The translations under genes and the position numbers were made by a program. 64,000 bases of DNA. Origin: Pseudanabaena sp. ELA607 (lineage in GTDB: Bacteria > Cyanobacteriota > Cyanobacteriia > Pseudanabaenales > Pseudanabaenaceae). Numbering within the stretch: position 1 is the stretch's first letter; every line of letters starts with the position of its first letter. The stretch spans positions 7,200 to 71,199 of the forward strand of contig JBAXSK010000001.1 in NCBI GenBank assembly GCA_037130765.1. The letters run 5' to 3'. This document shows, one piece after another, positions 22,669 through 49,483 of the stretch. Below the pieces are notes generated by a model that worked only from the letters and a program-made list of their open reading frames with translations, was not told the DNA's origin and searched no databases.

Positions 22669-25206
22669 TCAATTTGTTCCACTTTTATGATTTATTTGAA
22701 GACTTTTTCGCCTTTCAATTTCAGAGATCGGCAGCAAAAGATTTGCTCGTCTTTTTGCTTTCATTTCTTGACTGGCGTTTGGTGGATCGGTAAGATTTAG
22801 GCATTCAGCTAAAATTGTATTGGCATTGTAATAATTCTTTAATGCTTGCCTTGCTTCAGAAGTCATTCCGTTTTTTGGGTTTTGCCAGTCATGCCCGATC
22901 TGACGATGTTCAATCATAACTTTTCGTAGGTCTTCAGCCCATAAATGACAAGCTTCTGAACCATCCCATTGATCGCCATCGATTCCAAATGATTGCGGTA
23001 TATGCTGCTCCAAATTTTTAAGAGAATTCTCTAATTCGTGATATCCCAAATATTCTGCTAATTCAATTGCTTTTATTATATAGCTTCGGTTGTGAGGAAG
23101 TCTCGGTGCATTTTCATGAAGTTGAAGGCGATCATTATTTGATTTTGAATAATCCATTGCTCTTGGTAAATCTATATCTAATTGACATTCAACTAGACGA
23201 TCAAGCATTATGTAAAGACCATCTCGTGTTTCCTTTTCTATTTCAAGATTCTTTTTAGCTGTAATTGACAATATCCCCTCCAATTGATTGTCTATAAGCA
23301 ATTCATTTCCTATAGAATTTGGGTTAGAACAATTTGTATCTGTATAATCATTTAAAATGTCTTCTATAGTTATTGCTCTAATTGTTGCCTCCCCATACTT
23401 TGTTTTTCCTTCAATAGTCTGAGATTTTTTGAGTAGGCTTAATAGTATTTCTTGTAAATATGGATATCCCACAATTATGGCAGTGATTGTATCTTCCATT
23501 TGCTGTAAAAAACTATTTGGCTCGGATAACATTTCAACTGTAAACAAGAAAATTTCACGCCATTGGCGATCACCAAGATTCATAAACAGTTTCTGAAGAT
23601 CTTCAGTACCATTTTCAACACGATTCGCAATATCTCTCGCAACAAAATATTCATGCCAAGTCAAATGTCCAAAATAGTATTCATCATGATCTATAGTTAG
23701 CAATCCACTTCTATTAGTAATTTGGTCGTGCAATAGCTCTCTTGTACAATTTTCCTCATCACTCAAACCTTGCAAGCTGTTAATGCCAAGAAATTCATTT
23801 AGGTATCGTTGCAATTCATATTCTAAAAAATCTTTCTTCTCTTTAAATGTTTGTCTTGCTAAATACAAAACAAAATCATTAAAGCTATTATTTGATTTAG
23901 ATGTAAAATTTTTATTTTTATTCCACTCATGTACTAAAACATCAAACGCATACTCATAAAGCTGATAGCGTTTATCGGCAAGTTTTCCATTCTTAAAAAA
24001 TGTCTTACAAATTAAAGTGAGATTAATGGGGGTTTGAGCCAAGGCTTTGATTTGAGATTTATTTTTATCTTGAATTGCAGAAATTAATTCATTAGATGTT
24101 CTATCAGTATAGTGTTTATCTTTATATTCTTGATAATATTGTTTAATAAAGCTCTCAATAGCTACATCATCCAAATCAACAATATTAATATACAAGTATC
24201 TAGAATCATCTCGTTTTGCTGATGCCGAACGACAGGTAATCACAGCTTTATTTCGAGGGTATTTGGTTAAAATAAATTCATCAATGTATTTTTCTACTTT
24301 CTGCCTGTAATCCATTGACACTTCATCTAGACCATCTAATAAAATTAATAGATTTCCTTTATTTAAAATATACTCTATTTCTTCTGGTGAAACTCCTAAC
24401 GGGTTCCAACTGTTGACAATCACATCAAATATTTTTGATTTTTCTGTACTCTGCCAATCTTCAGTCCTAAGTTTAAAGTAAAAAGGTACTAAATCAGGAA
24501 ATAGTTCACCTGTAATACAGTGCATTGCTAAGAATTTCAGAGAATTTGTCTTACCTGCACCTGCTTTTCCTAGCAAAGCGATCGGTTTTATGATTGTTTT
24601 ACTTTGCTCGTAGTGGCTTTTTAGACAATCAATCAAAGGCATACGCCTCTTAGAGTTTGAGTCGCAAGAAATTTCAACATGAAAATCCTTAACATTTCTA
24701 TGTTGACCATCAGCAAATCGAATATCCTCACACCGTAGCTCAATCCAATCTCTAACTTTGTCTCGCACATTTTGGACTATGTTATTTCCATGACTATTGC
24801 GATCGCTTCCAAGTGTTGTTACTTCTTGAGTGCGATTGGGAGTAAGGATATTTTGGGAATTAGTTGGGGGGTGGGGGCGGCTTAATGTTTCGCTATCAAC
24901 TCCATCAGGACTAATATCGGGGTGAACAAAATCTGGCATATGTTGCCGAAATAAATAAACCAAATTATCCTGATGTGAATTTCCACGTCCAAATTTTATG
25001 CCGAAGTGATTGCACACCTCTTTCAGTCTGTGAGATACGATAGTAGTATCTTCAGGATTACATACATCTTGTCTTTTGCGTATAGCTTTTGCTATTTCTT
25101 TCTTAGTTTTTCCATCACGGATCAAAAGATTTACAAAAGTCAATAATTTGTCATTGACAGGTTTTTGCAATTCTTCAAACTTAGCTAAAAACTGCTGTTT
25201 GTCCAT
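22669..25206 (-). CDS. NACHT-family STAND NTPase with N-terminal HTH-like module
   Basis: Walker A LLGKAGAGKTNS and Walker B LLILLDGLDEV. The N-terminal roughly 90 aa (KKEIAKAI...IVSHRLKEVCNHFGI) resemble the HTH heads of 14102..15865 and 55675..57408. The C-terminal roughly 400 aa are helical with no obvious repeats. Confidence 0.85.
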   Translation of the reverse strand: MDKQQFLAKFEELQKPVNDKLLTFVNLLIRDGKTKKEIAKAIRKRQDVCNPEDTTIVSHRLKEVCNHFGIKFGRGNSHQDNLVYLFRQHMPDFVHPDISPDGVDSETLSRPHPPTNSQNILTPNRTQEVTTLGSDRNSHGNNIVQNVRDKVRDWIELRCEDIRFADGQHRNVKDFHVEISCDSNSKRRMPLIDCLKSHYEQSKTIIKPIALLGKAGAGKTNSLKFLAMHCITGELFPDLVPFYFKLRTEDWQSTEKSKIFDVIVNSWNPLGVSPEEIEYILNKGNLLILLDGLDEVSMDYRQKVEKYIDEFILTKYPRNKAVITCRSASAKRDDSRYLYINIVDLDDVAIESFIKQYYQEYKDKHYTDRTSNELISAIQDKNKSQIKALAQTPINLTLICKTFFKNGKLADKRYQLYEYAFDVLVHEWNKNKNFTSKSNNSFNDFVLYLARQTFKEKKDFLEYELQRYLNEFLGINSLQGLSDEENCTRELLHDQITNRSGLLTIDHDEYYFGHLTWHEYFVARDIANRVENGTEDLQKLFMNLGDRQWREIFLFTVEMLSEPNSFLQQMEDTITAIIVGYPYLQEILLSLLKKSQTIEGKTKYGEATIRAITIEDILNDYTDTNCSNPNSIGNELLIDNQLEGILSITAKKNLEIEKETRDGLYIMLDRLVECQLDIDLPRAMDYSKSNNDRLQLHENAPRLPHNRSYIIKAIELAEYLGYHELENSLKNLEQHIPQSFGIDGDQWDGSEACHLWAEDLRKVMIEHRQIGHDWQNPKNGMTSEARQALKNYYNANTILAECLNLTDPPNASQEMKAKRRANLLLPISEIERRKSLQINHKSGTN

Positions 25207-25305: not shown

Positions 25306-25761
25306 ATGACTCAGGCAATAGTAAAACAAACACTTTATGACACCGATCTTAATCTGTGGCTAGAGACAGTAATCGCTCAATTGCGATCCGGTGATTTGCA
25401 AAATGTTGATGTTGAAAATTTGATAGAGGAGTTAGAGGGTTTGGCAGGTAGAGATAAGCGGGAGGTTGCTAGTTGTCTGAAAACTCTTATTGAGCATCTT
25501 CTCAAGCGTTGTTATGTGGACATGCCCAACGAATTTAGAGGATGGGAAGTAACAATTAGAACTCAAAGATTTGAGTTAGAACAAATTCTCGAACAATCGC
25601 CAAGTCTCAAGCGTCACTTTGTCGAAAGCTTTGATAAATGTTTCAAGGTTGCAGTTAAAGATGTACAAGGGAATTATCCACAGTATCAATTACCCGATAC
25701 ATGGCAATTTGGATGTGATATCGACTCCATGTTAAATCAGGAATTTTGGCATAAGGGATAA
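25306..25761 (+). CDS. DUF29 family protein
   Basis: LYDTDLNLWLE...VENLIEELEGLAGRDKREVASCLKTLIEHLLK is the typical DUF29 pattern. Confidence 0.75.
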   Translation: MTQAIVKQTLYDTDLNLWLETVIAQLRSGDLQNVDVENLIEELEGLAGRDKREVASCLKTLIEHLLKRCYVDMPNEFRGWEVTIRTQRFELEQILEQSPSLKRHFVESFDKCFKVAVKDVQGNYPQYQLPDTWQFGCDIDSMLNQEFWHKG

Positions 25762-27015: not shown

Positions 27016-27525
27016 CTAATCCAAAATCGCCAAACTGTGAGGATTTTCAAGCTTCAGCAAACGGCTTTTCTTAATCAAATTTCCGTAGCAAATAATTAAC
27101 TTTTTTTGTTGATGAGCAGAAGTCGCGATCGCATATTCACTTTCTGGCAAATCAATCTGCACTTGTCGCTTAGCGATCGTATCCTGAACAGTAATTTTTC
27201 CCAATCTTGCATTACGAGGGCGATAGAGCTTGATCACATCTCCTTCCACAGTAGAAACCATCGCATCAAAATTTGGGATCTCCTGACCTGAAACCGCCGC
27301 ATAAAGCACATCAGGATCTAAATCAGCATTGTTTGCCCATTGAATAGTTCCCAATTCAGGATCTATATATACACTCTCAAAAAAATTTCTATCTTTTAAT
27401 GGCGCAAAAACACCAGTAAACTCAATCATTTTTGACAAGTCAACAACTCCCTCCATGCCATCTTCAAACTGCAAATGGAGTTTGTAATCCGTAAATGGTT
27501 TCACCATCAAAATATCTTGTAGCAT
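27016..27525 (-). CDS. DUF2442 domain protein with C-terminal extension
   Basis: The N-terminal half, VKPFTDYKLHLQFEDGMEGVVDLS...GTIQWANNADLDPDVLY, is DUF2442-like. It has an extra tail of about 85 aa. Confidence 0.7.
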   Translation of the reverse strand: MLQDILMVKPFTDYKLHLQFEDGMEGVVDLSKMIEFTGVFAPLKDRNFFESVYIDPELGTIQWANNADLDPDVLYAAVSGQEIPNFDAMVSTVEGDVIKLYRPRNARLGKITVQDTIAKRQVQIDLPESEYAIATSAHQQKKLIICYGNLIKKSRLLKLENPHSLAILD

Positions 27526-32623: not shown

Positions 32624-35029
32624 TTAGGGATAAGCCACAAAGTTAGCCGCTGTCAAAGCATTTAGCGTATTGTTGTAGTTGAGCAAAGTGGCTAACAGTT
32701 CGCTGCCATTGCGAATTTCCGTTTTAGTCCCATTTTGCGTAATAGCAAAACCACCAACACCGAAAGTAATGCCAACATTCAAGCCAATGCGATCTCCTTG
32801 AGATTGACTGAAATCTTGAATGGTATCGCTATCCACGCCAAGGGTTCCCAAAACGAATAAATCTGCACCACCGCCACCAACCAGTAAATCCTTGCCAGTA
32901 CCACCGATGAGGGTATCAATGCCATCGCCACCATAAAGACGATCCACACCAGCATTACCCGTGAGAGTGTCATTGCCAGTGCCGCCGTCGATGATGTCAT
33001 TACCCGAACCACCGGTTAATATATCGTCACCGCCACCACCACTGAAGTTATTATTTCCAGTAGTTGCTGAAGCGTTAATATTGTCGTTGTTATTACCACA
33101 GGCGATGATGTTGGCAGTGGCTCCAGTCAAGACAGTTCCGTTTTGGTCCGACTGAGTAGTATTAATATTTACTTGGTCTGTGACAATTATATTGAAGTTC
33201 GCCAATCCACTAGTTAAAGTGCCATCGCTAGCTTGGACGGAAATGGCATTTGTCCCCGTAGCTGTAGGAGTCCCAGAGAAGGTTCTCGTATTGCTATCGA
33301 AGTTCAACCAAGTGGGTTTCTGAGTGATGGCATAGCTCAAAGTAGTGCCCGCATCAGGATCAGCGAAGATATTACTCGGTAAAACGAAGGAGAATGCTTT
33401 ACCGTTTTGAGCTTGTTGGCTAGCAATTGGATTAATGTTGACCGGCGCTTCGTTAACATTGTTAATGCTAACGGTGAAGGTTTTATCGGTGTAAAGACCA
33501 CCATTATCAGTGGAACGCACAACTACGCTATAGCTAGATTTAGCCTCAAAGTTAGGAGCAGCATTAATCAGCAATTGATTGCCGCTAATTGTGAAAGCAG
33601 CATTGTCATTAGTTCCAGCCACAAAGCTGTAGGAGAAAGTATCACCGATAGTTGGATCGGTAGTAGTGAAAGTACCGATTGCACTGTTAGCCGCGACATT
33701 CTCATTAATGGCAGTGGCACTGAGGGCGATATTGGTCGGCGCACTGTTCAGATTTAGCCCAACAACGATCGGATCATGGTCGGAGGTGCGGAAGGGATCA
33801 ACGCTGTAGAAGCTGCTGACCTGACCAGCAGACTTAAACTCGGTGTTGTAATCTAGGACGGTCGGCTCATCAGAGTTGATATGCCACTTTGCCGCACCAG
33901 TTACTTGGCTGTTCAGACTGCCGCTTGCCAGTGCATGATCTAGCGAACCCCACTGACCATTAAACTGGTAGGAATAGGATTCGGGACCGAACAGGCTGGT
34001 GTAACCTGCGTTGGTCAGCGTAGTGATGGGGTCTTCCAAACGGTAGGCGTTGAGGTCGCCCAAAATTAAATAATCAGAATCAGCAGTGCCAGTGGGGTTG
34101 GTGGCTAACCATGCTGCCAATTGTTGTGCCGCCGCAGTACGAGTGGCATTGGACTGACCTTGACCGTCCAGTTGGTCAGCATCACCATTCAAGTTCGCTG
34201 CCGATCCCTTAGATTTGAAGTGGTTGATGACGGCGGTAAAAGTTTCGTTGGTTGGCGTGCCGTTGGCTAAGCGTTCAAAGGTGGTCGCCAGTGCCGGACG
34301 TTGCACCCGATTTCCCGTATCTTGGGCGAAGATGCCTGTGGTGAGGGCAGCAGCATTAGTGCCAGGGGCGATTCGCACCGCGTTGGTTTTGTAAATGAAG
34401 CCAACGGTGATTTCGTCACCACCAAAAAGACCGCCACTCAGAGCCGAAGCAGGTGGGGTCACAAAGGCGTAAGTGCCAGGAGCAGTGGCGGCATTGAGGG
34501 CATTGACCAATTGCTGTACAGCGCTGGCAGAACCAAAGCCGTCATTTTCCATTTCGTTGTAGCCGAAAACATCGGCGTTCAAGCCCAGAACTTCTTGAAC
34601 GGTTTTGTCGATTTGGCGTTTTAATTCGGTTGCATTGCTGGCTCCGCGAGAAGTGGGGAAGCCGCCATCAATCAACCCATCGCTGTTAGCATCCAATCCA
34701 TTGCCATTAAAGAAGTTGAGTAGGTTGGCACTGGCAACCCGAAGAGTACCGCCGACTACTGGAGGTGTGGTTGAACGAGGATTGCTGGCAACAAAGTTAG
34801 CTGGAGTGGTTGTTTGCACTCGATAACCTTCAAAACGCTCATCAAGAACGCCACTAATACTGGCGATCGTATCGCCCCCTCTAAGTGTATTTGTGGCACT
34901 CAAGGGCTGACCACCACGGGCATGAATCGTGGGATCTGGGTTTTGGGTGCTGCTACCGTCATCCAAGAATGATGTAGTTGTCTTGGAGATTAGCCAAATA
35001 GTTGGCATAGCCAGTGACGCTAGGGGCAT
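32624..35029 (-). CDS. nuclease fragment 3/3: endonuclease/exonuclease/phosphatase catalytic domain, two cadherin-like domains, RTX Ca-binding repeats
   Basis: EEP motifs LRVASANLLNFF and SDHDPIVVGL. Cadherin-like ...VSINNVNEAP. RTX nonapeptides GGGGDDILTGGSGNDIIDGGTGNDTLTGNAGVDRLYGGDGIDTL. Confidence 0.8.
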   Translation of the reverse strand: MPLASLAMPTIWLISKTTTSFLDDGSSTQNPDPTIHARGGQPLSATNTLRGGDTIASISGVLDERFEGYRVQTTTPANFVASNPRSTTPPVVGGTLRVASANLLNFFNGNGLDANSDGLIDGGFPTSRGASNATELKRQIDKTVQEVLGLNADVFGYNEMENDGFGSASAVQQLVNALNAATAPGTYAFVTPPASALSGGLFGGDEITVGFIYKTNAVRIAPGTNAAALTTGIFAQDTGNRVQRPALATTFERLANGTPTNETFTAVINHFKSKGSAANLNGDADQLDGQGQSNATRTAAAQQLAAWLATNPTGTADSDYLILGDLNAYRLEDPITTLTNAGYTSLFGPESYSYQFNGQWGSLDHALASGSLNSQVTGAAKWHINSDEPTVLDYNTEFKSAGQVSSFYSVDPFRTSDHDPIVVGLNLNSAPTNIALSATAINENVAANSAIGTFTTTDPTIGDTFSYSFVAGTNDNAAFTISGNQLLINAAPNFEAKSSYSVVVRSTDNGGLYTDKTFTVSINNVNEAPVNINPIASQQAQNGKAFSFVLPSNIFADPDAGTTLSYAITQKPTWLNFDSNTRTFSGTPTATGTNAISVQASDGTLTSGLANFNIIVTDQVNINTTQSDQNGTVLTGATANIIACGNNNDNINASATTGNNNFSGGGGDDILTGGSGNDIIDGGTGNDTLTGNAGVDRLYGGDGIDTLIGGTGKDLLVGGGGADLFVLGTLGVDSDTIQDFSQSQGDRIGLNVGITFGVGGFAITQNGTKTEIRNGSELLATLLNYNNTLNALTAANFVAYP

Positions 35030-37445
35030 TGACTTGAGTAAATTGGTCTAAGCGATCGCCACCTGACAAACCAACTTGACCATAGCGACCGAGCTTAAAG
35101 GTTTCCGTGACGGTTAAGGCCCCACTGCTAGAACTGACATTGACCAGCATCCCTTCGTAGCGTTCCAATGCTGTTGTATCCACTACAGGTAATACGACAT
35201 TGGTGATGGAGGGAAGATCTGCTGCTCCTAAGTCAACCACACTAGCAATGGTGAGTTGGGTCAGGCTGCTGTTGCCAGTCCCAGCGATGTTAGTTGAGCT
35301 AGAAGTGTATTCGCTAACGGTTCCCGTGACCTGAACCTTACGCCCCACTGCACCAGTGAAAAGTCCGCTAGGATCGTATACAAAGATGCCTTCGGAAGTT
35401 GCGGAGTTGCTATCAGCATCAGCATCTTCTTCTTGGACGTAGAAGCCGTTGAGTTTGGTGGAACCTTGGAAAGCGCGGGTGACAATGCCTTCGATCGCTA
35501 GGGTTCCCGTCAGAGCAGCCGTGGCACCACTGCCTTGAATATCATGGATTTTGGTAATAACTGTACTGCTCAACCCAGGTGAGCCAACCCCATTGGTGGC
35601 AGGACTTTGGGTCAACACCCCAAGCTGACCCGTTCGGGCATAGGTATATTTTGGAGCAGTGGTAGACTGACCATCCCAAACAGCAGAAACAGAGTTGGCA
35701 CCAGCGGTTGCACCAACTGCTACACCCGCGTGACCCGCCACTACAGCAGAATCATCTGTACGAGATACGGGCTGAATCACACTGCCATCAGATGCGTTAA
35801 TAGTCGTAGTTTTGTAATTGAAGCCTGTCACCAGTTGACCATTGGCATCAAACAGTGCCACCGCGTCCGCACTGCCTAGCCCAGGGCCTCCCGTGGCGAT
35901 GACCGCCGTGCCGGTGGAAAGTCCCCAAGCCGTGCGAAACGCTGCTGCATCGGTGGTATTGACTACAATGAGGCTTGCTCCAGGGTTCAAGCTCAAGGTC
36001 GTAGCAGAAAGGACAGCAGCGGCTGAGTCTGAAAAGTTTGCCGAATCATCGTCCCATTTCCAGCCAGTCAGGTCGATCGCCGTTGTGCCGTAGTTGTAGA
36101 TCTCGAAAAAGTCACCACCTGTGGAGTTTGAGTTGACTTCTGTAATCAGTACTTTAGGTAAAGGAGTCGGTACAAGCGTCGTGAAGTCATAGGCGGTTGC
36201 ACCTGTCAAGCCTGCCCAAGCATTGCCTGCATGATCGGTAATGGCTGTATTGCTTGCCTCTAGGTAATAGGATGTGCCTGTATCGAGATTGGCAGTTGGG
36301 TTAATGGTAACGGTGTTGTAGGCAATGGTTACTTTGGTATCGGTAGCGGCGATCGTTTCGACTATGCTGTTGTCGCTGGTTTTCTTGATCACAAAGCTGC
36401 CCGCGCCTGCTTTGACAGCCTCATCAAACTTGAGTACCAGATTAGAATTGACTGCTACATTAGTGCCATTGTCGGCGGGTGAACTGCTAGCTAGAGTCGG
36501 TGCGGTTGTGTCGGTTACGTCTGCCCCAATGTTGATCCAATTGCCTTGGAACTGTTGTTCGGCGGCAGGTAAGTCCTTGGAAACTACACTTTTACCTGGC
36601 CAAATGGTGTCACCGTTATCTTGCAATAGCTGCACCAAAGTACCTTGGGCTGTACTTAAAACATCAACAATCGTTTCAAAACTGCCGCCAGTTACGTCTC
36701 GGAGAACGTCCAGATTCACATTTAACTCAGTGGCTGGGTTGCTCGTGCCATCCCAACGGAAGAGGCGGAAATCGTTGGTTACTTCGGTGCTGGCTGAGCC
36801 TGAAGGTCCTGCGAGAATCAGGTAGCCACCGCCTACGGATTTTTCGATGGAGCGAATACCACGACCGCCTAGATTGAGTTCGATCGGTGTGCCGAAGGTT
36901 GGGGTATTCGTGCCGCCTGAGGTGATTAATCCTGATAGGGTAACTGGGACGATAATCGCTTTTTGCCGCAAGCTAGTATCCGATTGTGGAGCGCGGAAAC
37001 CTAGCAAGAGTTGTGTACCGTCTTGGGATGCGGTCATGCCCTCAATGGAGAAACCATTTAGGTTTTCAGGAATCACACCGACTGCGGATGAAGCTGTCAA
37101 GCCAAAGTAATTGGCTCCCTTGCCGTGGGCATTGCTGCTATCCCATGCACTTAAGGCGTTTTCTAGTTCGGTATTTTTACCGACATAGGTAAATTGCGTA
37201 TTTGCGCCAGTGCCAGAAACGGTGACAGCAAAAATGTTTTCGCGGCTGACCTGCTCGCTGCCATCTTTCTTGTTGCTGTGGGAGCCGATGAAGTACAATG
37301 TGTCGCCAATGCGGGTGCTGGCTTCTAAATCAACTTCGTTAGTACCAGTTCCCAAACCAGTGCCAAAGTTCCATTCTGCTACTGCCGCGCCGCCTGTACG
37401 AGCATAAACCCGCAGTGCGCTAGCTTCATCGTCTCCAACTACCAT
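34959..37445 (-). CDS. nuclease fragment 2/3: propeller/phytase-like module, Big_5 Ig domain, lamin-tail domain (LTD), ExeM/NucH N-terminal region
   Basis: LTD: VLITEVNSNSTGGDFFEIYNYGTTAIDLTGWKW. ExeM/NucH signature: ITKIHDIQGSG...IEGIVTRAF...GFYVQEED...EGIFVY. Confidence 0.75.
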   Translation of the reverse strand: MVVGDDEASALRVYARTGGAAVAEWNFGTGLGTGTNEVDLEASTRIGDTLYFIGSHSNKKDGSEQVSRENIFAVTVSGTGANTQFTYVGKNTELENALSAWDSSNAHGKGANYFGLTASSAVGVIPENLNGFSIEGMTASQDGTQLLLGFRAPQSDTSLRQKAIIVPVTLSGLITSGGTNTPTFGTPIELNLGGRGIRSIEKSVGGGYLILAGPSGSASTEVTNDFRLFRWDGTSNPATELNVNLDVLRDVTGGSFETIVDVLSTAQGTLVQLLQDNGDTIWPGKSVVSKDLPAAEQQFQGNWINIGADVTDTTAPTLASSSPADNGTNVAVNSNLVLKFDEAVKAGAGSFVIKKTSDNSIVETIAATDTKVTIAYNTVTINPTANLDTGTSYYLEASNTAITDHAGNAWAGLTGATAYDFTTLVPTPLPKVLITEVNSNSTGGDFFEIYNYGTTAIDLTGWKWDDDSANFSDSAAAVLSATTLSLNPGASLIVVNTTDAAAFRTAWGLSTGTAVIATGGPGLGSADAVALFDANGQLVTGFNYKTTTINASDGSVIQPVSRTDDSAVVAGHAGVAVGATAGANSVSAVWDGQSTTAPKYTYARTGQLGVLTQSPATNGVGSPGLSSTVITKIHDIQGSGATAALTGTLAIEGIVTRAFQGSTKLNGFYVQEEDADADSNSATSEGIFVYDPSGLFTGAVGRKVQVTGTVSEYTSSSTNIAGTGNSSLTQLTIASVVDLGAADLPSITNVVLPVVDTTALERYEGMLVNVSSSSGALTVTETFKLGRYGQVGLSGGDRLDQFTQVNAPSVTGYANYLANLQDNYIILG

Positions 37446-37689
37446 CCAGTTGGCATCTAGGGCTATGGCTGTGGAGGCATCAGAACTGCCTAAGGTAGTT
37501 CCGGCATTGGGTGTAAAGGTTTGGGTGCTACCAACGCTTCCCAGATCCCCAAAGTTAAGTCCTAAGTCGCTCTTTGTGGAACCGATAATCGCAGCAGCAT
37601 TACCGCCGAGGAAAGCAGAGTTATTGAAAACTAAACTAATATTGCTTAAGTCATTGGCATTAGCGTTGTTGGTTGCTGTGCCAGTGAAG

Positions 37690-38913
37690 CTAAGTTCTGC
37701 TGTGGTGGTGCTGGTGCGGGTCAGGACGGCGGTAAGTCCAGTGGGTACGTTGGGTAATGGTGGCTTTGCTACCCGTAATCAGGTTGTCGCCGTTGCTGCC
37801 AGTGAAACTATCGCTGCCCGTGAGAGTAATGATGATTTTGTCGTTGATGGAACCATCAAAGGCACGAGCTTCGTTGAGTGTGCTGGTGCTGTAACTCAAG
37901 GTAGGCGTGCCACCAGCAGATGCCGTGGTGAAATTCCAAGCCGTGCTGCCAGTGATTCCTGCAAAATTATTTCCAGCAGTATCTTTAATCGCTCCTGCGG
38001 AAATTTCTACATAATATCCAGTTCCTGCAATCAGGTCATTGGTAGGATTGATCGTTACTGTAGAACCACTAACGGTAACTTGAGCAGAGGTGACAGCGAT
38101 CGTTTCGACTACAGCATTGTCCGATGATTGCTTAATGACAATATTGCCAGTTCCCTTTTGGATATTCTCGTTAAAAGTGACCTGTAGGTTATTGCCAACA
38201 ACTACCGCAGTTGCATCGTCTGCTGGTGAAAGTGTAGCGATCGTGGGAGCAGTTGTGTCACTCCCTCCTGAAGTAATAGTGAAATCATCGATCGCTAGAC
38301 CCGCATCATTTCCTGTATTTTCAGTGTCAACCCACCGCAACCAAAATTGTTGGTTGTTGGCAATATTAAGCCCAGTAATTGTTGAACTTATGCTAGTAGG
38401 ATTTGTATTTCCATTCAGCGCTCCATTAGCTGCAACAGCTGGGGCTCCTGTAAAATTTAGAGCAGTGAATGGTGTCCAAGTACCAGAGGTAAGATCTGTT
38501 GCTCCAATTTGATAAGAAAAAGCGAGGACGTTTTGGGTTGTTGTACTACTTCTCCATTGCTCTCCCTTATAGCTAATAAGTAAGCTTGTAATATTACTGC
38601 CAGTAGTATTAGTTAAACTAACACCAAAAGCAGGGGTCGTTCCCCCAGATGCTAACGAACCCAACGCTCTTTCCGGAGGATTAGCACCAGTAGTACCATA
38701 ACTGTAAATCCCTCCTGCATTGTTTGCCCCATTATCAACAAACAAGCTAGTAGCACTAGTACCTGTTCCAGATAACTTCACTGCATACCAGTTACTTGCA
38801 AGAGAAGTAATAGGAACTGTTGACGAAGATGCAGATGGTAAGAATGATGCAACAGCAGTGGTAGGTAGTGTATCAAAATTTTCAGTATATGAACCATTGA
38901 AATTAACAGGCAT
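37690..38913 (-). CDS. nuclease fragment 1/3: N-terminal beta-rich module plus SbsA/Big_5-type Ig-like domain
   Basis: DTTAPTIATLSPADDATAV...VTINPTNDLIAGTGYYVEISAGAIKDTAGN is a Big_5-like pattern. No signal peptide is present. The frame is lost after ...GSKATIT. Confidence 0.7.
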   Translation of the reverse strand: MPVNFNGSYTENFDTLPTTAVASFLPSASSSTVPITSLASNWYAVKLSGTGTSATSLFVDNGANNAGGIYSYGTTGANPPERALGSLASGGTTPAFGVSLTNTTGSNITSLLISYKGEQWRSSTTTQNVLAFSYQIGATDLTSGTWTPFTALNFTGAPAVAANGALNGNTNPTSISSTITGLNIANNQQFWLRWVDTENTGNDAGLAIDDFTITSGGSDTTAPTIATLSPADDATAVVVGNNLQVTFNENIQKGTGNIVIKQSSDNAVVETIAVTSAQVTVSGSTVTINPTNDLIAGTGYYVEISAGAIKDTAGNNFAGITGSTAWNFTTASAGGTPTLSYSTSTLNEARAFDGSINDKIIITLTGSDSFTGSNGDNLITGSKATITQRTHWTYRRPDPHQHHHSRT

Positions 38914-40563: not shown

Positions 40564-40667
40564 CACCACCCCGTCAGGCATAGCCTGCCACCCCTCCAAG
40601 GGAGGGGAATTACAGACAAGATTAAAATTCCCCTCCCTTGGAGGGGTACGCCACAGGCGGGGGGTGG
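40564..40667. repeat. GC-rich hairpin repeat element (MITE-like)
   Basis: Inverted arms caccaccccgtcaggc...cccctccaagggaggggaatt and aattcccctcccttggaggggtacgcc...ggggggtgg. One arm recurs at 49399..49466. Confidence 0.7.
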
Positions 40668-47001: not shown

Positions 47002-47880
47002 TTACCAATTATCGAGGAGTTTCGGTAACGTACTCTCAGTTAAGAAGCGTTTGCCGTCAGCACCTGTTCTAGACAAAATATCTTCCATGGATTCATAGGG
47101 TTTGACCAGTCGAGATTCAAAGACTTTCTTAGCCGTACTTTTAGCCGTAGTGATACCCACTTGGGATAACTTGGCGGTTAATGGTAAAACAGCCAGATTA
47201 TTGAGTCCATCAAGAACTAATTTTGCTCTTTCCGGATCGTATTCCAATTTGTTCGGCTTGCTTACCTTAGCCTTGGTGGGATTGGTTTTGGTTGACTTAG
47301 TTTTGGTTGTATTGGAGTTACTTGATTCAGGCTTGCTAGCAGGAGGATTGACCGATTCAGTAACTGCAATATATTTCTGAATTGTTTTTTGTACGATAGA
47401 CTCTAATTTAGATTCATTCACTAATTGAGATGCCAACTTCTCCTCAAAATTATCCATCCGAGATGCCAAAGTATTAATCTGAGCTAAAATCAGCTTTAAC
47501 TCATTCGGTAGCTTAGATTCACTAGGATGATTAATAACTGTATTCAGTGGATTGTCCTGTGACCTCAACAGCGATCTAAAAAAATCATATTGTTCTAGAA
47601 CACTTGACTCTAGCTGCGGTGGCACAATATAAGCCTGAATGGAAGTAAATTGCTCGTCTATTTGTTCCGCCTTAAGTGCCGCATAATATTCCAAATAACC
47701 TTCTAGAATTGCAAAGGAAATTGGCGATATTTTGCGGACAATAATCGGTTTAATGGTATCGCGCACTTGCAAAAACAGATTAGCCAGAGTCTCTATCTGA
47801 CTCTCCTCAAATTGATTGCGATGGGCGGAATCTGGGGCGATGATCGTTTCAAGATCGATAGAAAATGGTACAAAACTCAT
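47002..47880 (-). CDS. ParB/Srx-like N-terminal domain protein with degenerate arginine patch and HhH-like C-terminus
   Basis: The N-terminus HRNQFEESQIETLANLFLQVRDTIKPIIVRK...FAILEGYLEYYAA follows the ParB-N pattern, but EGYLEY replaces GERR. It is coupled (ATGA) to the upstream ParA-like gene. Confidence 0.6.
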   Translation of the reverse strand: MSFVPFSIDLETIIAPDSAHRNQFEESQIETLANLFLQVRDTIKPIIVRKISPISFAILEGYLEYYAALKAEQIDEQFTSIQAYIVPPQLESSVLEQYDFFRSLLRSQDNPLNTVINHPSESKLPNELKLILAQINTLASRMDNFEEKLASQLVNESKLESIVQKTIQKYIAVTESVNPPASKPESSNSNTTKTKSTKTNPTKAKVSKPNKLEYDPERAKLVLDGLNNLAVLPLTAKLSQVGITTAKSTAKKVFESRLVKPYESMEDILSRTGADGKRFLTESTLPKLLDNW

Positions 47881-49301
47881 GAAGGTAATCCTATTTTTTC
47901 AAGAATTTCATTAGCTAGTTCTTCAAACTCTGCGGCTGACATCGAATCAGGCTTAAAGTCAAAGATCGATAAAGGATCAGGAATTTGCAGATCGCCAACG
48001 GTCACAGAATGATCCAGCGCTCGCGATAAGTCTTCTCTCTGAAAAATTCTCGTTTCTAATACAGGCAATCCATATCGATCTTTTACCACATTTTCTTGTT
48101 TGGGCAAAGTCACTTCAATATACTTCGCATTGGTCAATATTTTAGAAGGCAAAACTCCTAAAACATTAATTTCTGCTCGATTTGTGAGAACTCGAAATTC
48201 ATTTATTTCTTCCAAAAAGTTTTTGACGTTGCGTAAACCTTCGTTAGCAAATGGTTTGAGATCAGAGGGAATAATTAAATAATCACAAGCGATTAGAGCA
48301 ATTTTAGCGTATAAATTCAGTGAAGGAGGTGTATCAATTAAAACCACATCATATACATCTTTCACCAGTTCCAATTTCTTGACTAAATAGTTTTTAGCAG
48401 CATCCTTATTCGCCAAAATCGCTTCTTGACCAATCAAATTAATATGAGCCGGAATTACATCCACTTTGGGATAAGTGAAAGTTCCTTGTAAGGCAACATC
48501 AGGCAGATATTTCTCTTTGGGCGAGGCGATCACATGATAAACATTGCTGTCTCTGAGGGTGTCATCTTCTTCGGTGACAAACTTCATTAACCCTGCGGCA
48601 AAGGTTGTATTAGCTTGGCTATCGAGATCCACAATTAAAACTCGTTTGCCCTTCTTGCTCAAAGCCGCAGCCAAATTAATCACTGTGGTGGTTTTACCCA
48701 CGCCGCCTTTGTTGTGATAAATTGCGATGGTTTTCATATTTACTGTCTCTGGCTTGGGAATTATGATTTGATCCGTATCAGGATCAGGTAATGGATCTGG
48801 GTCAGCCTGACTGGGAATTAGCTGATCTGAAGTTGGCAGATCTGCAATTACAGCACCGCTTCCCTCCAGCCCCGCCAACTTGTTTTTACCGATGATATTT
48901 CTAATCGCCGCAATTTGATGGGCAATTTCAACCCCTTGACATCGAAAACTTAGCTTAACTTGCTCCCCAACCAACTCATAGATCCGAAAATCTTTACCAT
49001 TAGTCAGAATGCCATACACAACCCGCAATTGTGTTAAATAGTATGATAGCTTCCTCACATAAAAGTCAAGATTTTTGCTGGGACTTTTAGCTTCTATGAC
49101 CACACAAATTTTAGGCGCTGGATCGACAGCACTGGGAAAAACTTGGGATGTCAGGGCTAAAAAATCTAAGCGAATGCTGCCTAAAGCTACCTCCTGATGC
49201 CATTTACTCGGATCGTAGCCAAGGGCAGGCAAAAGATACTGCACAATTAATTTACTTTCAACCTCGCTCTCATTGCGGCACAGACTCGGATCAAAATTCA
49301 T
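47877..49301 (-). CDS. fusion protein: N-terminal PD-(D/E)xK (HsdR-N-like) domain plus ParA/Soj-type ATPase
   Basis: N-terminus: ESEVESKLIVQYLLPALGY...RLDFLAL...VVIEAKSP...GILTNGKDFRIYEL. C-terminus: deviant Walker A NKGGVGKTT, IVDLDSQ, VLIDTPP. Confidence 0.8.
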   Translation of the reverse strand: MNFDPSLCRNESEVESKLIVQYLLPALGYDPSKWHQEVALGSIRLDFLALTSQVFPSAVDPAPKICVVIEAKSPSKNLDFYVRKLSYYLTQLRVVYGILTNGKDFRIYELVGEQVKLSFRCQGVEIAHQIAAIRNIIGKNKLAGLEGSGAVIADLPTSDQLIPSQADPDPLPDPDTDQIIIPKPETVNMKTIAIYHNKGGVGKTTTVINLAAALSKKGKRVLIVDLDSQANTTFAAGLMKFVTEEDDTLRDSNVYHVIASPKEKYLPDVALQGTFTYPKVDVIPAHINLIGQEAILANKDAAKNYLVKKLELVKDVYDVVLIDTPPSLNLYAKIALIACDYLIIPSDLKPFANEGLRNVKNFLEEINEFRVLTNRAEINVLGVLPSKILTNAKYIEVTLPKQENVVKDRYGLPVLETRIFQREDLSRALDHSVTVGDLQIPDPLSIFDFKPDSMSAAEFEELANEILEKIGLPS

Positions 49302-49398
49302 GATTACTATATGTTTTAACCATATACTTAAAAAGTAATATCATGATATAAATATATTTGAACCAAGCATATTTATATCGTCATTTAAAATTATTTTG

Positions 49399-49466
49399 GC
49401 ACATTAAAAGAACTTGACCACGCCCCGCCTGCGGCGTACCCCTCCAAGGAAGGGGAATTTTAATAC
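49399..49466. repeat. solo arm of the 40564..40667 hairpin element
   Basis: It is the near-exact reverse complement of 40621..40687 (ggcacattaaaagaacttgaccacgccccgcctgcggcgtacccctccaaggaaggggaattttaat). Confidence 0.75.
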
Positions 49467-49483
49467 GCAATTTTAAATTTACG

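What the first reader, a model, noticed from the sequence alone, without database searches (positions are those of the whole stretch)
47002..49301. PD-(D/E)xK nuclease-ParA fusion coupled to a degenerate ParB-like/HhH protein
The 474-aa protein joins an HsdR-N-type restriction-endonuclease fold to a ParA/Soj ATPase. The nuclease part reads EVESKLIVQYLL..LGY, RLDFLAL, VVIEAKSP, GILTNGKDFRIYEL. A Pro/Asp-rich linker follows, and the ATPase carries the deviant Walker A NKGGVGKTT.

Its stop overlaps (ATGA) the start of a 292-aa protein. That protein's N-terminus follows the ParB/Srx pattern but has EGYLEY in place of the GERR arginine patch. Its C-terminus looks like a helix-hairpin-helix DNA binder.

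The pair sits between housekeeping genes, next to a solo MITE arm. It is unlike a canonical chromosomal parAB because of the extra nuclease head, the lost CTP/arginine motif and the absence of an origin context. It could be a DNA-targeting defence or anti-plasmid module, or a cargo-positioning system with a novel adaptor.
Basis: partly seen in the sequence, partly recalled or inferred. Interest (0 to 1): 0.65.

Follow-up and report, generated by a model that had tools for sequence, protein, structure and literature searches.

The report
Cyanobacterial nuclease-headed ParA with ParB-like partner
This two-gene operon, kept on the chromosome of many cyanobacteria, encodes a ParA-type DNA-partition ATPase that carries a restriction-nuclease-like head, plus a stripped-down ParB-like DNA-binding partner; it looks like an unstudied housekeeping system acting on the nucleoid rather than a defence module.

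Summary
ORF 47877-49301(-) encodes a 474-aa fusion. It has a PD-(D/E)xK head of the HsdR_N type with invariant E15, D46 and E70-x-K72. A disordered Pro/Asp linker follows, then a Soj/ParA ATPase with the Walker A motif NKGGVGKTT. Its stop overlaps (ATGA) ORF 47002-47880(-). That 292-aa protein has a high-confidence ParB/Srx fold in which GERR is replaced by G-Y-L-E-Y. It has no HTH domain, and continues with a coiled coil, a basic linker and a C-terminal HhH domain.

The pair is not a sporadic or mobile module. The head motif was found in 453 GTDB species genomes, and every complete gene among the 80 loci inspected is the same fusion. These loci span Pseudanabaena, Nostocales, Oscillatoriales and Leptolyngbya-like lineages. 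Nearly every locus that extends past the fusion gene has the homologous partner immediately downstream, usually overlapping or abutting it. Flanks are housekeeping genes and are not syntenic. I found no copy on PLSDB plasmids or IMG/VR contigs, and no PADLOC match.

The head is as conserved as the ATPase. Some lineages swap the partner's HhH for Rho_N/SAP, which points to generic DNA binding. My best reading is a cyanobacteria-specific, centromere-independent ParA/ParB-like system acting on the nucleoid, with a probably active nuclease. I found no published characterisation.

The parts
47877..49301 (-). Gene for the 474-aa PD-(D/E)xK-ParA fusion protein
   Evidence: ORF list and sequence. Homologues at 63-79% identity occur throughout Pseudanabaena. 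The same architecture is present in all complete genes of the 80 GTDB loci.
48867..49301 (-). N-terminal PD-(D/E)xK (HsdR_N_2-type) nuclease-like head, aa 1-145
   Evidence: Pfam HSDR_N_2, E 2.3e-4. AF2 topology alpha(11-26)-beta-beta-beta-alpha(78-91)-beta. tblastn gives 36% identity over 104 aa to the head of Thermus type IIG 'N-6 DNA methylase' enzymes. Between-group identity is 0.59, as high as the ATPase domain.
49086..49094 (-). E70-A-K72 of the catalytic D...ExK motif; D46 is at 49164-49166 and E15 at 49257-49259
   Evidence: E70 is invariant. K72, D46 and E15 are at least 90% conserved across the main family and a paralogous fusion family.
48744..48866 (-). Pro/Asp-rich flexible linker, aa 146-186
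   Evidence: pLDDT below 30. Length and sequence vary between homologues.
47880..48743 (-). ParA/Soj-type ATPase domain, aa 187-474
   Evidence: AAA_31, E 2.6e-52. Foldseek matches Soj and ParA structures (9a6n, 2bej, 6iub) at E about 1e-14. phmmer against PDB hits the M. smegmatis ParA-like protein, H. pylori Soj and T. thermophilus Soj.
48687..48713 (-). Deviant Walker A NKGGVGKTT, aa 197-205, with signature Lys198
   Evidence: Read directly from the sequence. Invariant in alignment A1.
47877..47880 (-). ATGA stop/start overlap coupling the two genes
   Evidence: An overlap of 4 or 1 nt, or a gap of 0-5 nt, is seen in nearly all 75 related loci.
47002..47880 (-). Gene for the 292-aa ParB/Srx - coiled coil - HhH partner
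   Evidence: ORF. It is homologous to the downstream gene in all 75 loci that have one (phmmer E 1e-50 to 4e-11). Sources name family members 'ParB N-terminal domain-containing' or 'helix-hairpin-helix domain-containing' protein.
47563..47880 (-). ParB/Srx-fold domain, aa 1-106
   Evidence: AF2 pLDDT 94-98. Foldseek matches Noc 7nfu (E 2.5e-4, rmsd 2.6 A), ParB 6sdk and 7bm8, sulfiredoxin, PadC and KorB. The family profile hits Noc and Spo0J.
47686..47703 (-). E-G-Y-L-E-Y, aa 60-65, in the position of ParB Box II GERR(xRA)
   Evidence: The HMM alignment to Noc places G-d-f-e-Y-y-A opposite G-E-R-R-W-R-A. The family consensus is D-G-H-F-E-Y-Y-A-A, with G61 and Y65 invariant and E64 nearly so.
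47350..47505 (-). Long helix or predicted coiled coil, aa 126-177
   Evidence: A single helix spanning 126-177 in the AF2 model, pLDDT 62-80. Coiled-coil-type Pfam noise hits occur across the family.
47236..47349 (-). Disordered basic K/T/S/P-rich linker, aa 178-215, partly encoded by a 30-nt tandem duplication at 47258-47317
   Evidence: pLDDT below 50 for aa 178-207. Direct repeat D1. The region is expanded in Pseudanabaena homologues and short or absent elsewhere.
47005..47235 (-). C-terminal helix-hairpin-helix-type domain, aa 216-292
   Evidence: AF2 pLDDT 88-97. The family profile hits AF1531 2i5h and a 'DNA-binding protein' 27ae. HHH_6, DUF655 and HHH_3 hits occur in 22, 21 and 10 of 38 members. 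Three lineages have Rho_N/SAP here instead.
49302..49483 (.). Upstream intergenic region with an AT-rich imperfect palindrome (49340-49384) and a dispersed GC-rich repeat (49418-49455)
   Evidence: No operator-like motif is shared with the upstream regions of the other loci, so a regulatory role is not shown.

Best explanation
The pair is a chromosomal, vertically inherited operon specific to cyanobacteria. It is a divergent relative of ParAB that works on bulk DNA (the nucleoid) rather than on a parS centromere.

Shown:
- Protein 1 is a Soj/ParA-type ATPase with all nucleotide-handling residues intact.
- It carries a PD-(D/E)xK head on a flexible tether. The head's metal and catalytic residues are as conserved as the ATPase.
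- Protein 2 keeps only the ParB/Srx fold of ParB. It lacks the CTP-binding arginines, the HTH domain and the N-terminal ParA-activating peptide.
- Protein 2 ends in a generic DNA-binding module, HhH, which some lineages replace with Rho_N/SAP.
- The two genes are translationally coupled nearly everywhere.

Inferred mechanism:
- The ATP-bound ParA dimer binds the nucleoid non-specifically. The conserved Arg422 lies at the position of the Soj DNA-binding arginine.
- The partner dimerises through its coiled coil and coats DNA through its HhH domain and basic linker.
- The partner uses its ParB/Srx domain to contact ParA and stimulate its ATPase, as ParB and PadC do.
- The resulting ATP-driven cycling distributes the tethered nuclease heads over the chromosomes.

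The most likely biological role is organisation, separation or processing of the multiple chromosome copies of these polyploid cells. The head would act as an ATP- and partner-gated DNA-binding or cleaving module.
For: Architecture and motifs.

ATPase resembles Soj/ParA.

ParB/Srx fold with GERR replaced and no HTH.

HhH, and its replacement by Rho_N/SAP, argue for sequence-independent DNA binding.

Wide conservation of fusion plus partner with gene coupling: 453 GTDB species hits, and 80 of 80 inspected loci carry the head on a ParA.

The head is at least as conserved as the ATPase (0.59 against 0.56 between groups; 0.74 against 0.61 within the non-Pseudanabaena group). The partner is at 0.27.

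Housekeeping, non-syntenic flanks.

Not on plasmids or viral contigs.

No defence-model match.

In the representative library of 1.84 billion proteins, the head subfamily is essentially confined to these fusions. There are 32 hits at E<=1e-30; the full-length ones are 437-541 aa (one of 650 aa carries an extra N-terminal domain) and the rest are shorter, probably fragments.

Metatranscriptome contigs cover the whole operon, and one 2.7-kb contig spans both genes.

A review states that cyanobacteria lack a classical ParABS (PMC7766704). Cyanobacterial orders rank low for detectable chromosomal parB (dataset S1 of PMC12704722).
Against: - No experiment bears on function. DNA binding, ATPase stimulation and nuclease activity are all inferred.
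- The head's fold rests on a medium-confidence model (pLDDT 65-90) and sub-threshold or borderline Pfam hits. No solved-structure match for it was obtained.
- Distribution beyond the 80 listed loci, for example picocyanobacteria, Synechococcus elongatus and Synechocystis, was not established. 'Many cyanobacterial lineages' is a lower-bound statement, not proof of universality.
- A constitutively expressed active nuclease tethered to the nucleoid needs tight control, and the sequence does not show how that would work.
- Expression evidence is weak. RNA contig depth is about 0.3 of DNA depth, similar to neighbouring genes, and DNA carry-over is possible.
Confidence: 0.5

Rival explanations
1. 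DNA repair, recombination or processing machine. The ParA-like ATPase is not a positioning motor but an ATP switch. It gates the PD-(D/E)xK nuclease on particular DNA structures, such as junctions, catenanes or DNA trapped at the septum. The HhH/ParB-like protein acts as the DNA-structure sensor.
For: The catalytic residues of the head are conserved as strictly as the ATPase. HhH modules are typical of repair proteins, and the family profile matches AF1531/DUF655. The distribution is housekeeping-like.
Against: The ATPase is closest to bona fide partition ATPases (Soj/ParA), not to repair ATPases. The ParA-then-ParB-fold gene order with coupling is the hallmark of partition loci. No repair genes are consistently adjacent.
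Confidence: 0.2
2. Positioning system for a non-DNA cargo, analogous to McdAB for carboxysomes. ParA patterns on the nucleoid, and the partner is an adaptor that also binds some protein assembly.
For: ParA/MinD ATPases position many protein cargos, and cyanobacteria already use McdAB (PMC7182216). Foldseek also matches Cyanothece McdA (6non, E 6e-12). The partner evolves fast and has a coiled coil and a disordered region, like many adaptors.
Against: Both identifiable ends of the partner are nucleic-acid-related (ParB/Srx and HhH or Rho_N/SAP), and there is no obvious cargo-binding domain. The nuclease head has no rationale in protein-cargo positioning. There is no conserved linkage to any cargo operon.
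Confidence: 0.1
3. Ordinary chromosomal ParABS orthologue whose ParB has merely diverged in sequence. It would still recognise a centromere and segregate origins.
For: The gene order is parA then parB-like, with coupling. The ParB/Srx fold is closest to Noc and Spo0J. Databases label some members 'chromosome partitioning protein'.
Against: - There is no HTH domain.
- GERRxRA is replaced by G-[HYD]-[FL]-E-Y-Y-A.
- There is no LG-R/K-GL peptide.
- No NCBIfam ParB model matches, and ParA_partition scores 87.6 against a cut-off of 180.
- There is no parS consensus within 64 kb, and the window has no origin genes.
- The C-terminal DNA binder is interchangeable between generic modules.
Confidence: 0.1
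4. Defence or anti-plasmid module. A ParA-guided restriction-like nuclease destroys foreign DNA.
For: The head is related to nuclease heads of type I and type IIG restriction enzymes. Its catalytic residues are intact.
Against: - The operon is conserved across many cyanobacterial orders with divergence that tracks taxonomy.
- Neighbours are housekeeping genes.
- There are no copies on plasmids or viral contigs.
- There is no PADLOC system match.
- There is no methyltransferase or other self/non-self component in the operon.
Confidence: 0.07

Closest known systems
Chromosomal ParA(Soj)-ParB(Spo0J)-parS partition system (type Ib)
   Same: It has a deviant Walker A ATPase closest in sequence and fold to Soj/ParA. 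The downstream, translationally coupled gene has a ParB/Srx-fold N-domain closest to Noc and Spo0J.
   Different: ParA has an extra 145-aa PD-(D/E)xK head and a 40-aa linker. The ParB-like protein lacks the GERR arginine patch, the HTH parS-binding domain, the N-terminal ParA-activating peptide and the usual C-terminal dimerisation domain. Instead it has a coiled coil plus HhH, or Rho_N/SAP in some lineages. No parS was found in the window.
Type Ia plasmid ParA proteins (P1 ParA, F SopA) and Vibrio ParA2
   Same: These are ParA ATPases with an additional N-terminal DNA-interacting domain. They also appear among the Foldseek matches (3ez2, 7npe).
   Different: Their N-terminal extension is a winged-HTH or helical domain used for operator binding and autoregulation. 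It is not a nuclease fold with catalytic residues. They are plasmid or secondary-chromosome systems with canonical ParB and parS.
PadC (Myxococcus xanthus) and Noc: ParB/Srx-fold proteins repurposed away from centromere binding
   Same: The ParB/Srx domain is used as a module outside classical segregation. PadC recruits ParA through this domain. Both appear in the Foldseek list (6ryk, 7nfu).
   Different: PadC and Noc retain nucleotide (CTP) binding motifs, whereas this family has lost the arginines. PadC binds bactofilin, and Noc binds specific DNA sites and the membrane. This family binds, by inference, bulk DNA through HhH.
McdA-McdB carboxysome positioning system of cyanobacteria
   Same: It is a cyanobacterial two-gene ParA-type system with a fast-evolving partner that contains a coiled coil (PMC7182216). 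McdA is a weaker structural match.
   Different: McdA has no nuclease head. McdB has neither a ParB/Srx fold nor an HhH domain. This operon has no linkage to carboxysome genes.
Nuclease heads of type I (HsdR) and type IIG/IIL restriction enzymes (Pfam HSDR_N, HSDR_N_2)
   Same: The same PD-(D/E)xK subfamily by Pfam. Identity is 30-36% to the heads of Thermus type IIG enzymes and to HsdR_N proteins. The D...ExK and TNG motifs are conserved.
   Different: The head is fused to a ParA ATPase, not to a helicase motor or a methyltransferase with a target-recognition domain. No modification partner is present. The subfamily is tight and essentially restricted to these fusions.

Membership tests
ParA/MinD superfamily, Soj/ParA-type partition ATPase | Deviant Walker A KGGxGK[ST] with signature lysine | tested here: met
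   NKGGVGKTT at aa 197-205, invariant in 17 homologues.
ParA/MinD superfamily, Soj/ParA-type partition ATPase | Profile match above curated threshold and fold match to solved ParA/Soj structures | tested here: met
   AAA_31 177.7 bits (cut-off 27) and CbiA 73.2 bits. Foldseek matches Soj and ParA at E about 1e-14 with target-normalised TM 0.73-0.80. phmmer against PDB.
ParA/MinD superfamily, Soj/ParA-type partition ATPase | Conserved catalytic Asp residues (Walker A' DxD and Walker B) and the Arg at the Soj DNA-binding position | tested here: met
   D225, D227, D323 and R422 are invariant in A1. The equivalence of R422 to the Soj DNA-binding Arg comes from my motif comparison (QREDLSRA against PRNVRLSEA) and is an inference.
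ParA/MinD superfamily, Soj/ParA-type partition ATPase | Meets an NCBIfam equivalog cut-off for a named ParA (ParA_partition, RepA, SopA, MinD) | tested here: not met
   The best hit is ParA_partition at 87.6 bits against a cut-off of 180. The protein is a superfamily member but not any curated equivalog.
ParA/MinD superfamily, Soj/ParA-type partition ATPase | ATP-dependent dimerisation, non-specific DNA binding and partner-stimulated ATPase | not testable with these tools
   Requires biochemistry.
Canonical ParB (CTP-dependent parS clamp) | ParB/Srx N-terminal fold | tested here: met
   AF2 pLDDT 94-98. Foldseek matches Noc, ParB and Srx. The family profile hits Noc and Spo0J. 36 of 38 family members hit ParB_N.
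Canonical ParB (CTP-dependent parS clamp) | Box II arginine patch GERRxRA for CTP binding and hydrolysis | tested here: not met
   The aligned segment is E-G-Y-L-E-Y-Y-A in the window protein and D-G-H-F-E-Y-Y-A in the family consensus. All three arginines are replaced.
Canonical ParB (CTP-dependent parS clamp) | Central helix-turn-helix parS-binding domain | tested here: not met
   The ParB/Srx domain (aa 1-106) runs into one long helix (aa 126-177). There is no HTH in the model or in Pfam.
Canonical ParB (CTP-dependent parS clamp) | N-terminal basic ParA-activating peptide (LG-R/K-GL) | tested here: not met
   The protein begins MSFVPFSIDL, five residues before the first strand, with no basic peptide. 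The motif is as defined in PMC12704722.
Canonical ParB (CTP-dependent parS clamp) | parS centromere sites (TGTTNCACGTGAAACA-like) near the locus | tested here: inconclusive
   There is no match with up to 2 mismatches in the 64-kb window. The rest of the genome was not available.
Canonical ParB (CTP-dependent parS clamp) | Encoded directly downstream of parA in one operon | tested here: met
   ATGA overlap in the window. The same coupling is seen in about 75 loci.
PD-(D/E)xK nucleases, HsdR_N / HSDR_N_2 type | Profile match to PF13588 or PF04313 at gathering score | tested here: inconclusive
   The window protein scores 21.6 bits against a cut-off of 25. Most homologues carry precomputed PF13588 hits of unstated score, and the Nostoc orthologue is marked 'weak'.
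PD-(D/E)xK nucleases, HsdR_N / HSDR_N_2 type | Alpha-beta-beta-beta-alpha-beta core with D on strand 2 and ExK on strand 3 | tested here: met
   The AF2 model has helix 11-26, strands 34-40, 43-50 and 64-71, helix 78-91 and strand 94-100. D46 and E70/K72 fall on strands 2 and 3. Model confidence is moderate.
PD-(D/E)xK nucleases, HsdR_N / HSDR_N_2 type | Catalytic residues conserved across the family | tested here: met
   E70 is invariant. D46, K72 and E15 are at least 90% conserved over 25 diverse heads, including a paralogous fusion family. One degenerate outlier is P0302.
PD-(D/E)xK nucleases, HsdR_N / HSDR_N_2 type | Structural match to a solved PD-(D/E)xK nuclease | not tested
   Foldseek was run on the full-length model, and the 50 matches shown were all to the ATPase domain. 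The domain could not be submitted alone. The profile search against PDB sequences found nothing.
PD-(D/E)xK nucleases, HsdR_N / HSDR_N_2 type | Mg2+-dependent DNA cleavage | not testable with these tools
   Requires an enzyme assay.
Known anti-phage or anti-plasmid defence systems (PADLOC-DB 2.0) | Full-length match of the components to a defence-system model | tested here: not met
   Only a 45-residue P-loop match to PDC-M28B and a marginal REase_MTase_IIG hit (E 0.008) were found. There was nothing for the partner.
Known anti-phage or anti-plasmid defence systems (PADLOC-DB 2.0) | Patchy distribution, mobile or defence-island context | tested here: not met
   The pair is conserved across many cyanobacterial orders. 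Flanks are housekeeping genes. It is absent from plasmids and viral contigs.
McdAB carboxysome positioning | Partner is a small, largely disordered McdB without known folds, and the locus is often near carboxysome genes | tested here: not met
   The partner has a confident ParB/Srx fold and an HhH domain. No carboxysome shell genes are adjacent.

The most novel reading that the evidence does not exclude
Cyanobacteria are reputed to lack a classical ParABS. They may use this operon as a centromere-independent partition or processing machine for their many chromosome copies. In this reading, a ParA ATPase patterns itself on the nucleoid while carrying an active, ATP- and partner-gated endonuclease. 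A ParB/Srx protein that has lost CTP switching and parS recognition acts as a sequence-independent DNA-coating activator. This would be the first ParA-family system whose motor subunit is itself a nuclease. It would link chromosome spacing to DNA cutting, for example to separate entangled or septum-trapped copies.
Probability: 0.2. Interest if true: 0.8.

Novelty: new variant of a known kind. Interest (0 to 1): 0.55.

Why it matters
How polyploid cyanobacteria organise and apportion their chromosome copies is an open question. Reviews state that they lack a classical ParABS (PMC7766704).

This pair is a widely conserved ParA/ParB-derived operon with two unusual features. The ATPase carries a strictly conserved nuclease-type head. 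The ParB-like partner has lost both its nucleotide switch and its centromere reader. That makes it an obvious, genetically testable candidate for the missing function.

It would also widen the known repertoire of ParA/MinD systems and of ParB/Srx-fold proteins. It may explain why surveys based on the ParB Pfam model detect chromosomal parB in only 30-70% of cyanobacterial species (PMC12704722 dataset S1). Members of this family straddle that model's threshold.

Tried and rejected
- **Canonical parS search.** A search of the window found nothing with up to 2 mismatches.
- **Shared operator upstream.** I looked for a shared operator or palindrome upstream of the operon in 78 loci. Only the generic cyanobacterial HIP1 palindrome recurs. 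The window's AT-rich palindrome at 49340-49384 is not conserved, so I make no regulatory claim.
- **Promoter and terminator scan.** Counts did not differ from shuffled sequence.
- **Synteny.** None of ten window neighbours is found within 6 kb of the operon in any of the 80 loci. Clustering of neighbours shows only lineage-local synteny.
- **Head profile against PDB sequences.** No hit.
- **Foldseek of the full-length model.** The matches shown were all to the ATPase domain, so the head's fold was not independently matched.
- **PADLOC.** No system match.
- **Plasmid and viral searches.** Negative for both proteins.
- **Literature.** Nine full-text searches and five papers read. None describes a nuclease-ParA fusion or this ParB-like/HhH partner in cyanobacteria. 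One search was wasted on a wrong match mode.
- **McdAB idea.** Rejected on partner architecture.
- **Menshen-like defence.** Menshen has a ParB-DUF262 component (PMC12065111). Rejected because its components and distribution differ.

Full report
**1. The observation.** The TGA of the first overlaps the ATG of the second at 47877-47880. Every quoted peptide is present.

Pfam finds a strong ParA-type ATPase in the fusion: AAA_31 at E 2.6e-52 and CbiA at E 2.4e-20, covering aa 189-431. It also finds a sub-threshold HSDR_N_2 match at aa 17-114 (E 2.3e-4; 21.6 bits against a cut-off of 25). The second protein gives only a sub-threshold ParB_N match at aa 10-72 (E 7.5e-4). NCBIfam places the ATPase in the ParA superfamily, but it stays below every equivalog cut-off. 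NCBIfam gives nothing for the partner except a marginal Noc hit.

**2. The weak calls hold up at family level.**

*Nuclease-like head.*
- In 17 Pseudanabaena-type homologues, E13, E15, D46, E70, A71, K72 and N101 are invariant.
- The wider alignment has 25 heads. It includes Nostocales, Oscillatoriales, Leptolyngbya-like lineages and a paralogous fusion family. There E70 and T100-N101 are invariant, and E15, D46 and K72 are at least 90% conserved.
- The AlphaFold model (mean pLDDT 67; head 65-91) shows helix 11-26, three strands, helix 78-91 and further strands. This is the PD-(D/E)xK core, with D46 on strand 2 and E70-x-K72 on strand 3. Residues 146-186 are disordered.
- tblastn of the head against 72,556 plasmids finds only remote relatives. 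These are the N-terminal heads of Thermus type IIG 'N-6 DNA methylase' enzymes (36% identity over 104 aa) and HsdR_N-domain proteins. That ties the head to genuine restriction nuclease modules.
- I could not get an independent structural match for the head. Foldseek takes only the whole model, and the listed matches were all to the ATPase. A profile search of PDB sequences found nothing.

*ATPase.* It is closest to chromosomal Soj/ParA proteins. Foldseek matches 9a6n, 2bej, 6iub and 8ray at E about 1e-14, and Cyanothece McdA more weakly. phmmer against PDB agrees. The Walker A motif including Lys198 and Lys203, the DLD motif, the Walker B Asp323 and Arg422 are all invariant. Arg422 lies at the position of the Soj DNA-binding arginine; that equivalence is my own motif comparison.

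*Partner.*
- A 38-sequence family profile hits Noc (7nfu, E 2.9e-6), Spo0J (6sdk, E 7e-6) and Caulobacter ParB. At the C-terminus it hits the HhH protein AF1531 (2i5h, E 2e-4).
- AlphaFold (mean pLDDT 82) gives four parts. There is a ParB/Srx domain at aa 1-106 with pLDDT 94-98, and one long helix at aa 126-177. A disordered basic K/T/S/P-rich stretch follows at aa 178-207. The C-terminal helical domain at aa 216-292 is confident (pLDDT 88-97).
- Foldseek returns Noc (rmsd 2.6 A over 88 columns), ParB-CDP, sulfiredoxin, PadC and KorB.
- 36 of 38 family members hit ParB_N, 22 hit HHH_6, 21 hit DUF655 and 10 hit HHH_3.
- In the HMM alignment, ParB's G-E-R-R-W-R-A is opposite G-d-f-e-Y-y-A. This reads E-G-Y-L-E-Y-Y-A in the window protein and D-G-H-F-E-Y-Y-A in the consensus, so all three arginines are gone.
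- There is no HTH domain and no N-terminal basic ParA-activating peptide.

**3. Distribution changes the interpretation.** A scan of one genome per GTDB species with two head peptides found 453 loci that encode a relative. The 80 retained loci include many lineages:
- about 30 Pseudanabaena species;
- Nostoc, Anabaena, Calothrix, Scytonema, Nodularia and Fortiea;
- Komarekiella and Sphaerospermopsis;
- Microcoleus, Phormidium, Oscillatoria and Laspinema;
- Hormoscilla and Coleofasciculus;
- Leptolyngbya, Elainella and Baaleninema;
- a member of the Chroococcidiopsidaceae.

In every locus where the gene is complete, the head is followed by a Walker A motif 170-245 residues downstream. The fusion is therefore the rule. 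In about 75 loci the next gene starts at -4, -1 or 0 to +5 nt and encodes a protein of 227-324 aa. All of these are homologous to the window's partner, with phmmer E from 1e-50 to 4e-11.

A profile search of the partner returns 437 proteins. Sources name them 'ParB N-terminal domain-containing protein', 'helix-hairpin-helix domain-containing protein' or 'hypothetical'. They come from Nostoc, Calothrix, Chlorogloeopsis, Symploca, Microcoleus, Crocosphaera and others.

In the library of 1.84 billion representatives, the head profile has only 162 hits at E<=1e-3 and 32 at E<=1e-30. The full-length strong hits are fusions of 437-541 aa, plus one of 650 aa with an extra N-terminal domain, and the rest are shorter, probably fragments. 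The head subfamily therefore essentially exists only as this fusion. A second, more distant fusion family also appeared, with Walker A context 'MIITVFNNKGGVGKTT'. A member is named from Myxacorys, a cyanobacterium.

**4. Context.** The window is ordinary cyanobacterial chromosome:
- Raf1, LepA, a two-component pair, a sigma factor and a carbonic anhydrase;
- a phosphate ABC transporter, CheW/CheR and NdhN;
- a ycf45-like AAA/R3H protein;
- a solute-binding protein, PdxJ, BtpA, VKOR and dicarboxylate symporters.

No dnaA or dnaN was found among the annotated ORFs, and there is no second ParA. Two STAND NTPases lie 22-33 kb away and are not adjacent.

None of the window's neighbours recurs near the operon elsewhere. 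Neighbour clustering shows only lineage-local synteny: CoaX upstream in most Pseudanabaena, and IleS and glycosyltransferases in Nostocales. The Nostoc NIES-4103 locus is flanked by GatB, DnaJ and cysteine synthase. The head is absent from IMG/VR viral contigs. The partner is absent from PLSDB. PADLOC gives no system match.

The operon, not its surroundings, is what is conserved. This is the signature of a core, vertically inherited function and the opposite of a defence island.

**5. Selection.**

| Region | Identity between Pseudanabaena group and the rest | Identity within the rest |
|---|---|---|
| Head | 0.59 | 0.74 |
| ATPase domain | 0.56 | 0.61 |
| Partner | 0.27 | 0.37 |

(All.) The nuclease-like head is under at least as strong constraint as the motor, which argues for a working active site or an equally demanding interface.

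The partner's C-terminus is interchangeable. In Laspinema, Hormoscilla and Coleofasciculus the HhH is replaced by Rho_N/SAP, which scores above the Pfam cut-off. In those proteins ParB_N also passes its cut-off. Two unrelated generic nucleic-acid binders in the same position imply that the job of this end is sequence-independent DNA binding.

**6. Expression.** Three freshwater metatranscriptome runs hold 87-95% of the region's k-mers. One 2,706-nt contig spans 46629-49331 and so covers both genes. Depth is low, about 10 against 31 in the matching DNA run. pdxJ reaches 80-160 against 21 in DNA. The evidence is therefore compatible with low co-transcription but does not exclude DNA carry-over.

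**7. Mechanism (inferred).** The ParA dimer, once ATP-bound, binds the nucleoid. The partner dimerises through its long helix and coats DNA through its HhH domain and basic linker. Its ParB/Srx domain contacts ParA to trigger ATP hydrolysis. ParB does this through its N-terminal region, and PadC recruits ParA through its own ParB/Srx domain (PMC12704722). The two nuclease heads, on 40-residue tethers, are thereby delivered to and released from DNA in an ATP-dependent cycle.

The partner has neither a centromere reader nor a CTP clamp, so the system should be centromere-independent. Most cyanobacteria are polyploid, and reviews state they lack a classical ParABS (PMC7766704). The most economical role is therefore spacing, separating or processing chromosome copies. 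What the nuclease cuts, and whether it cuts at all, is unknown.

**8. Known relatives and novelty.** The closest known system is ParABS, but four defining ParB features are tested and not met. The ParA also meets no curated equivalog. Other points of comparison:
- Type Ia ParAs offer a precedent for an N-terminal DNA-interacting extension.
- PadC and Noc offer precedents for repurposed ParB/Srx domains.
- McdAB offers a precedent for a cyanobacterial ParA-type system with a non-ParB partner.

None of these combines a nuclease head with the motor.

Databases already hold hundreds of members under generic names, so the genes are not new. However, nine full-text searches and five papers gave no description or experiment on this pair. 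A recent survey of the ParB-CTPase fold lists cyanobacterial orders among the lowest for detectable chromosomal parB: Pseudanabaenales 54%, Cyanobacteriales 41% and Thermosynechococcales 32%. Members of this family score on both sides of the ParB_N cut-off. Part of that patchiness may therefore be this family; this is my inference and was not tested.

I rate it a new variant of a known kind: uncharacterised, widely conserved and readily testable.

**9. Limits.**
- I could not examine the rest of this genome, so I cannot say whether a canonical parAB or parS exists elsewhere in it.
- I could not establish presence or absence in picocyanobacteria or the standard unicellular model strains.
- The head's fold rests on a medium-confidence model and on motif conservation.
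- All functional statements are inference.

Noticed in passing
window 49418-49455 (+) and 40630-40667 (-): A 38-nt GC-rich element (CCACGCCCCGCCTGCGGCGTACCCCTCCAAGGAAGGGG) occurs twice in the window. In metagenome and metatranscriptome contigs, the bin containing it has about 85 times the depth of its flanks. Contigs break there with many different continuations.
   Followed up: partly
L034, L036, L039, L045, L047, L050, L051, L054, L059, L061, L068, L072, L077, L080 and others, about 100-1500 nt upstream of the fusion gene, opposite strand: In many non-Pseudanabaena cyanobacteria a second, plain ParA-like gene lies divergently next to the fusion gene. It encodes 294-304 aa with an 'MKGGVGKTT' Walker A motif, and its best PDB matches are Soj and ParA. 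This suggests a possible three-gene module. It is not present in the window.
   Followed up: partly
L037:7476-8261, L043:7371-8096, L068:7470-8150 (partner genes): In three lineages (Laspinema, Hormoscilla, Coleofasciculus) the partner's C-terminal HhH domain is replaced by a Rho_N/SAP domain that scores above the Pfam cut-off. L033 has a third, unassigned C-terminus.
   Followed up: yes
proteins P0315, P0317, P0322, P0325, P0329, P0344, P0378 (not in the window): This is a second, paralogous family of HsdR_N-like head plus ParA fusions of about 460-500 aa, with Walker A context 'MIITVFNNKGGVGKTT'. A cluster member is named from the cyanobacterium Myxacorys almedinensis. P0318 and P0321 may be a third type ('HSKGGxGxTT'). 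Their partners were not examined.
   Followed up: partly
window 47258-47317: A 30-nt tandem duplication (70% identical) lies inside the partner gene. It encodes part of the basic T/K/S-rich linker (TKTKSTKTNPTKAKVSK). This linker is expanded in Pseudanabaena and short or absent in other lineages.
   Followed up: partly
window 47005-47007 (last codon of the partner): The partner ends in a tryptophan (..LLDNW), and the family consensus is IIDxW close to the C-terminus. From memory, cyanobacterial McdB proteins are also noted for a conserved C-terminal Trp. This is probably coincidence, since here the Trp sits in the last helix of the HhH domain.
   Followed up: no
window 14102-15865 (-) and 22669-25206 (-): Two STAND-type NTPases are present: an NB-ARC protein of 587 aa and a NACHT plus NCH2 protein of 845 aa. 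A DUF29 gene lies at 25306-25761 and a DUF2442 gene at 27016-27525. These are possible conflict-system genes, unrelated to and 22-33 kb away from the finding.
   Followed up: no
window 32624-38913 (-): This is a cluster of large secreted-type proteins with Big_5, He_PIG, lamin-tail and RTX repeats. Local GC is raised to 0.50-0.53 against about 0.42 elsewhere.
   Followed up: no
L001, L007, L011, L023, downstream of the partner gene: In four Pseudanabaena genomes, three small co-directional genes follow the operon. The last has an HNH-like motif. They are not present in the window.
   Followed up: no
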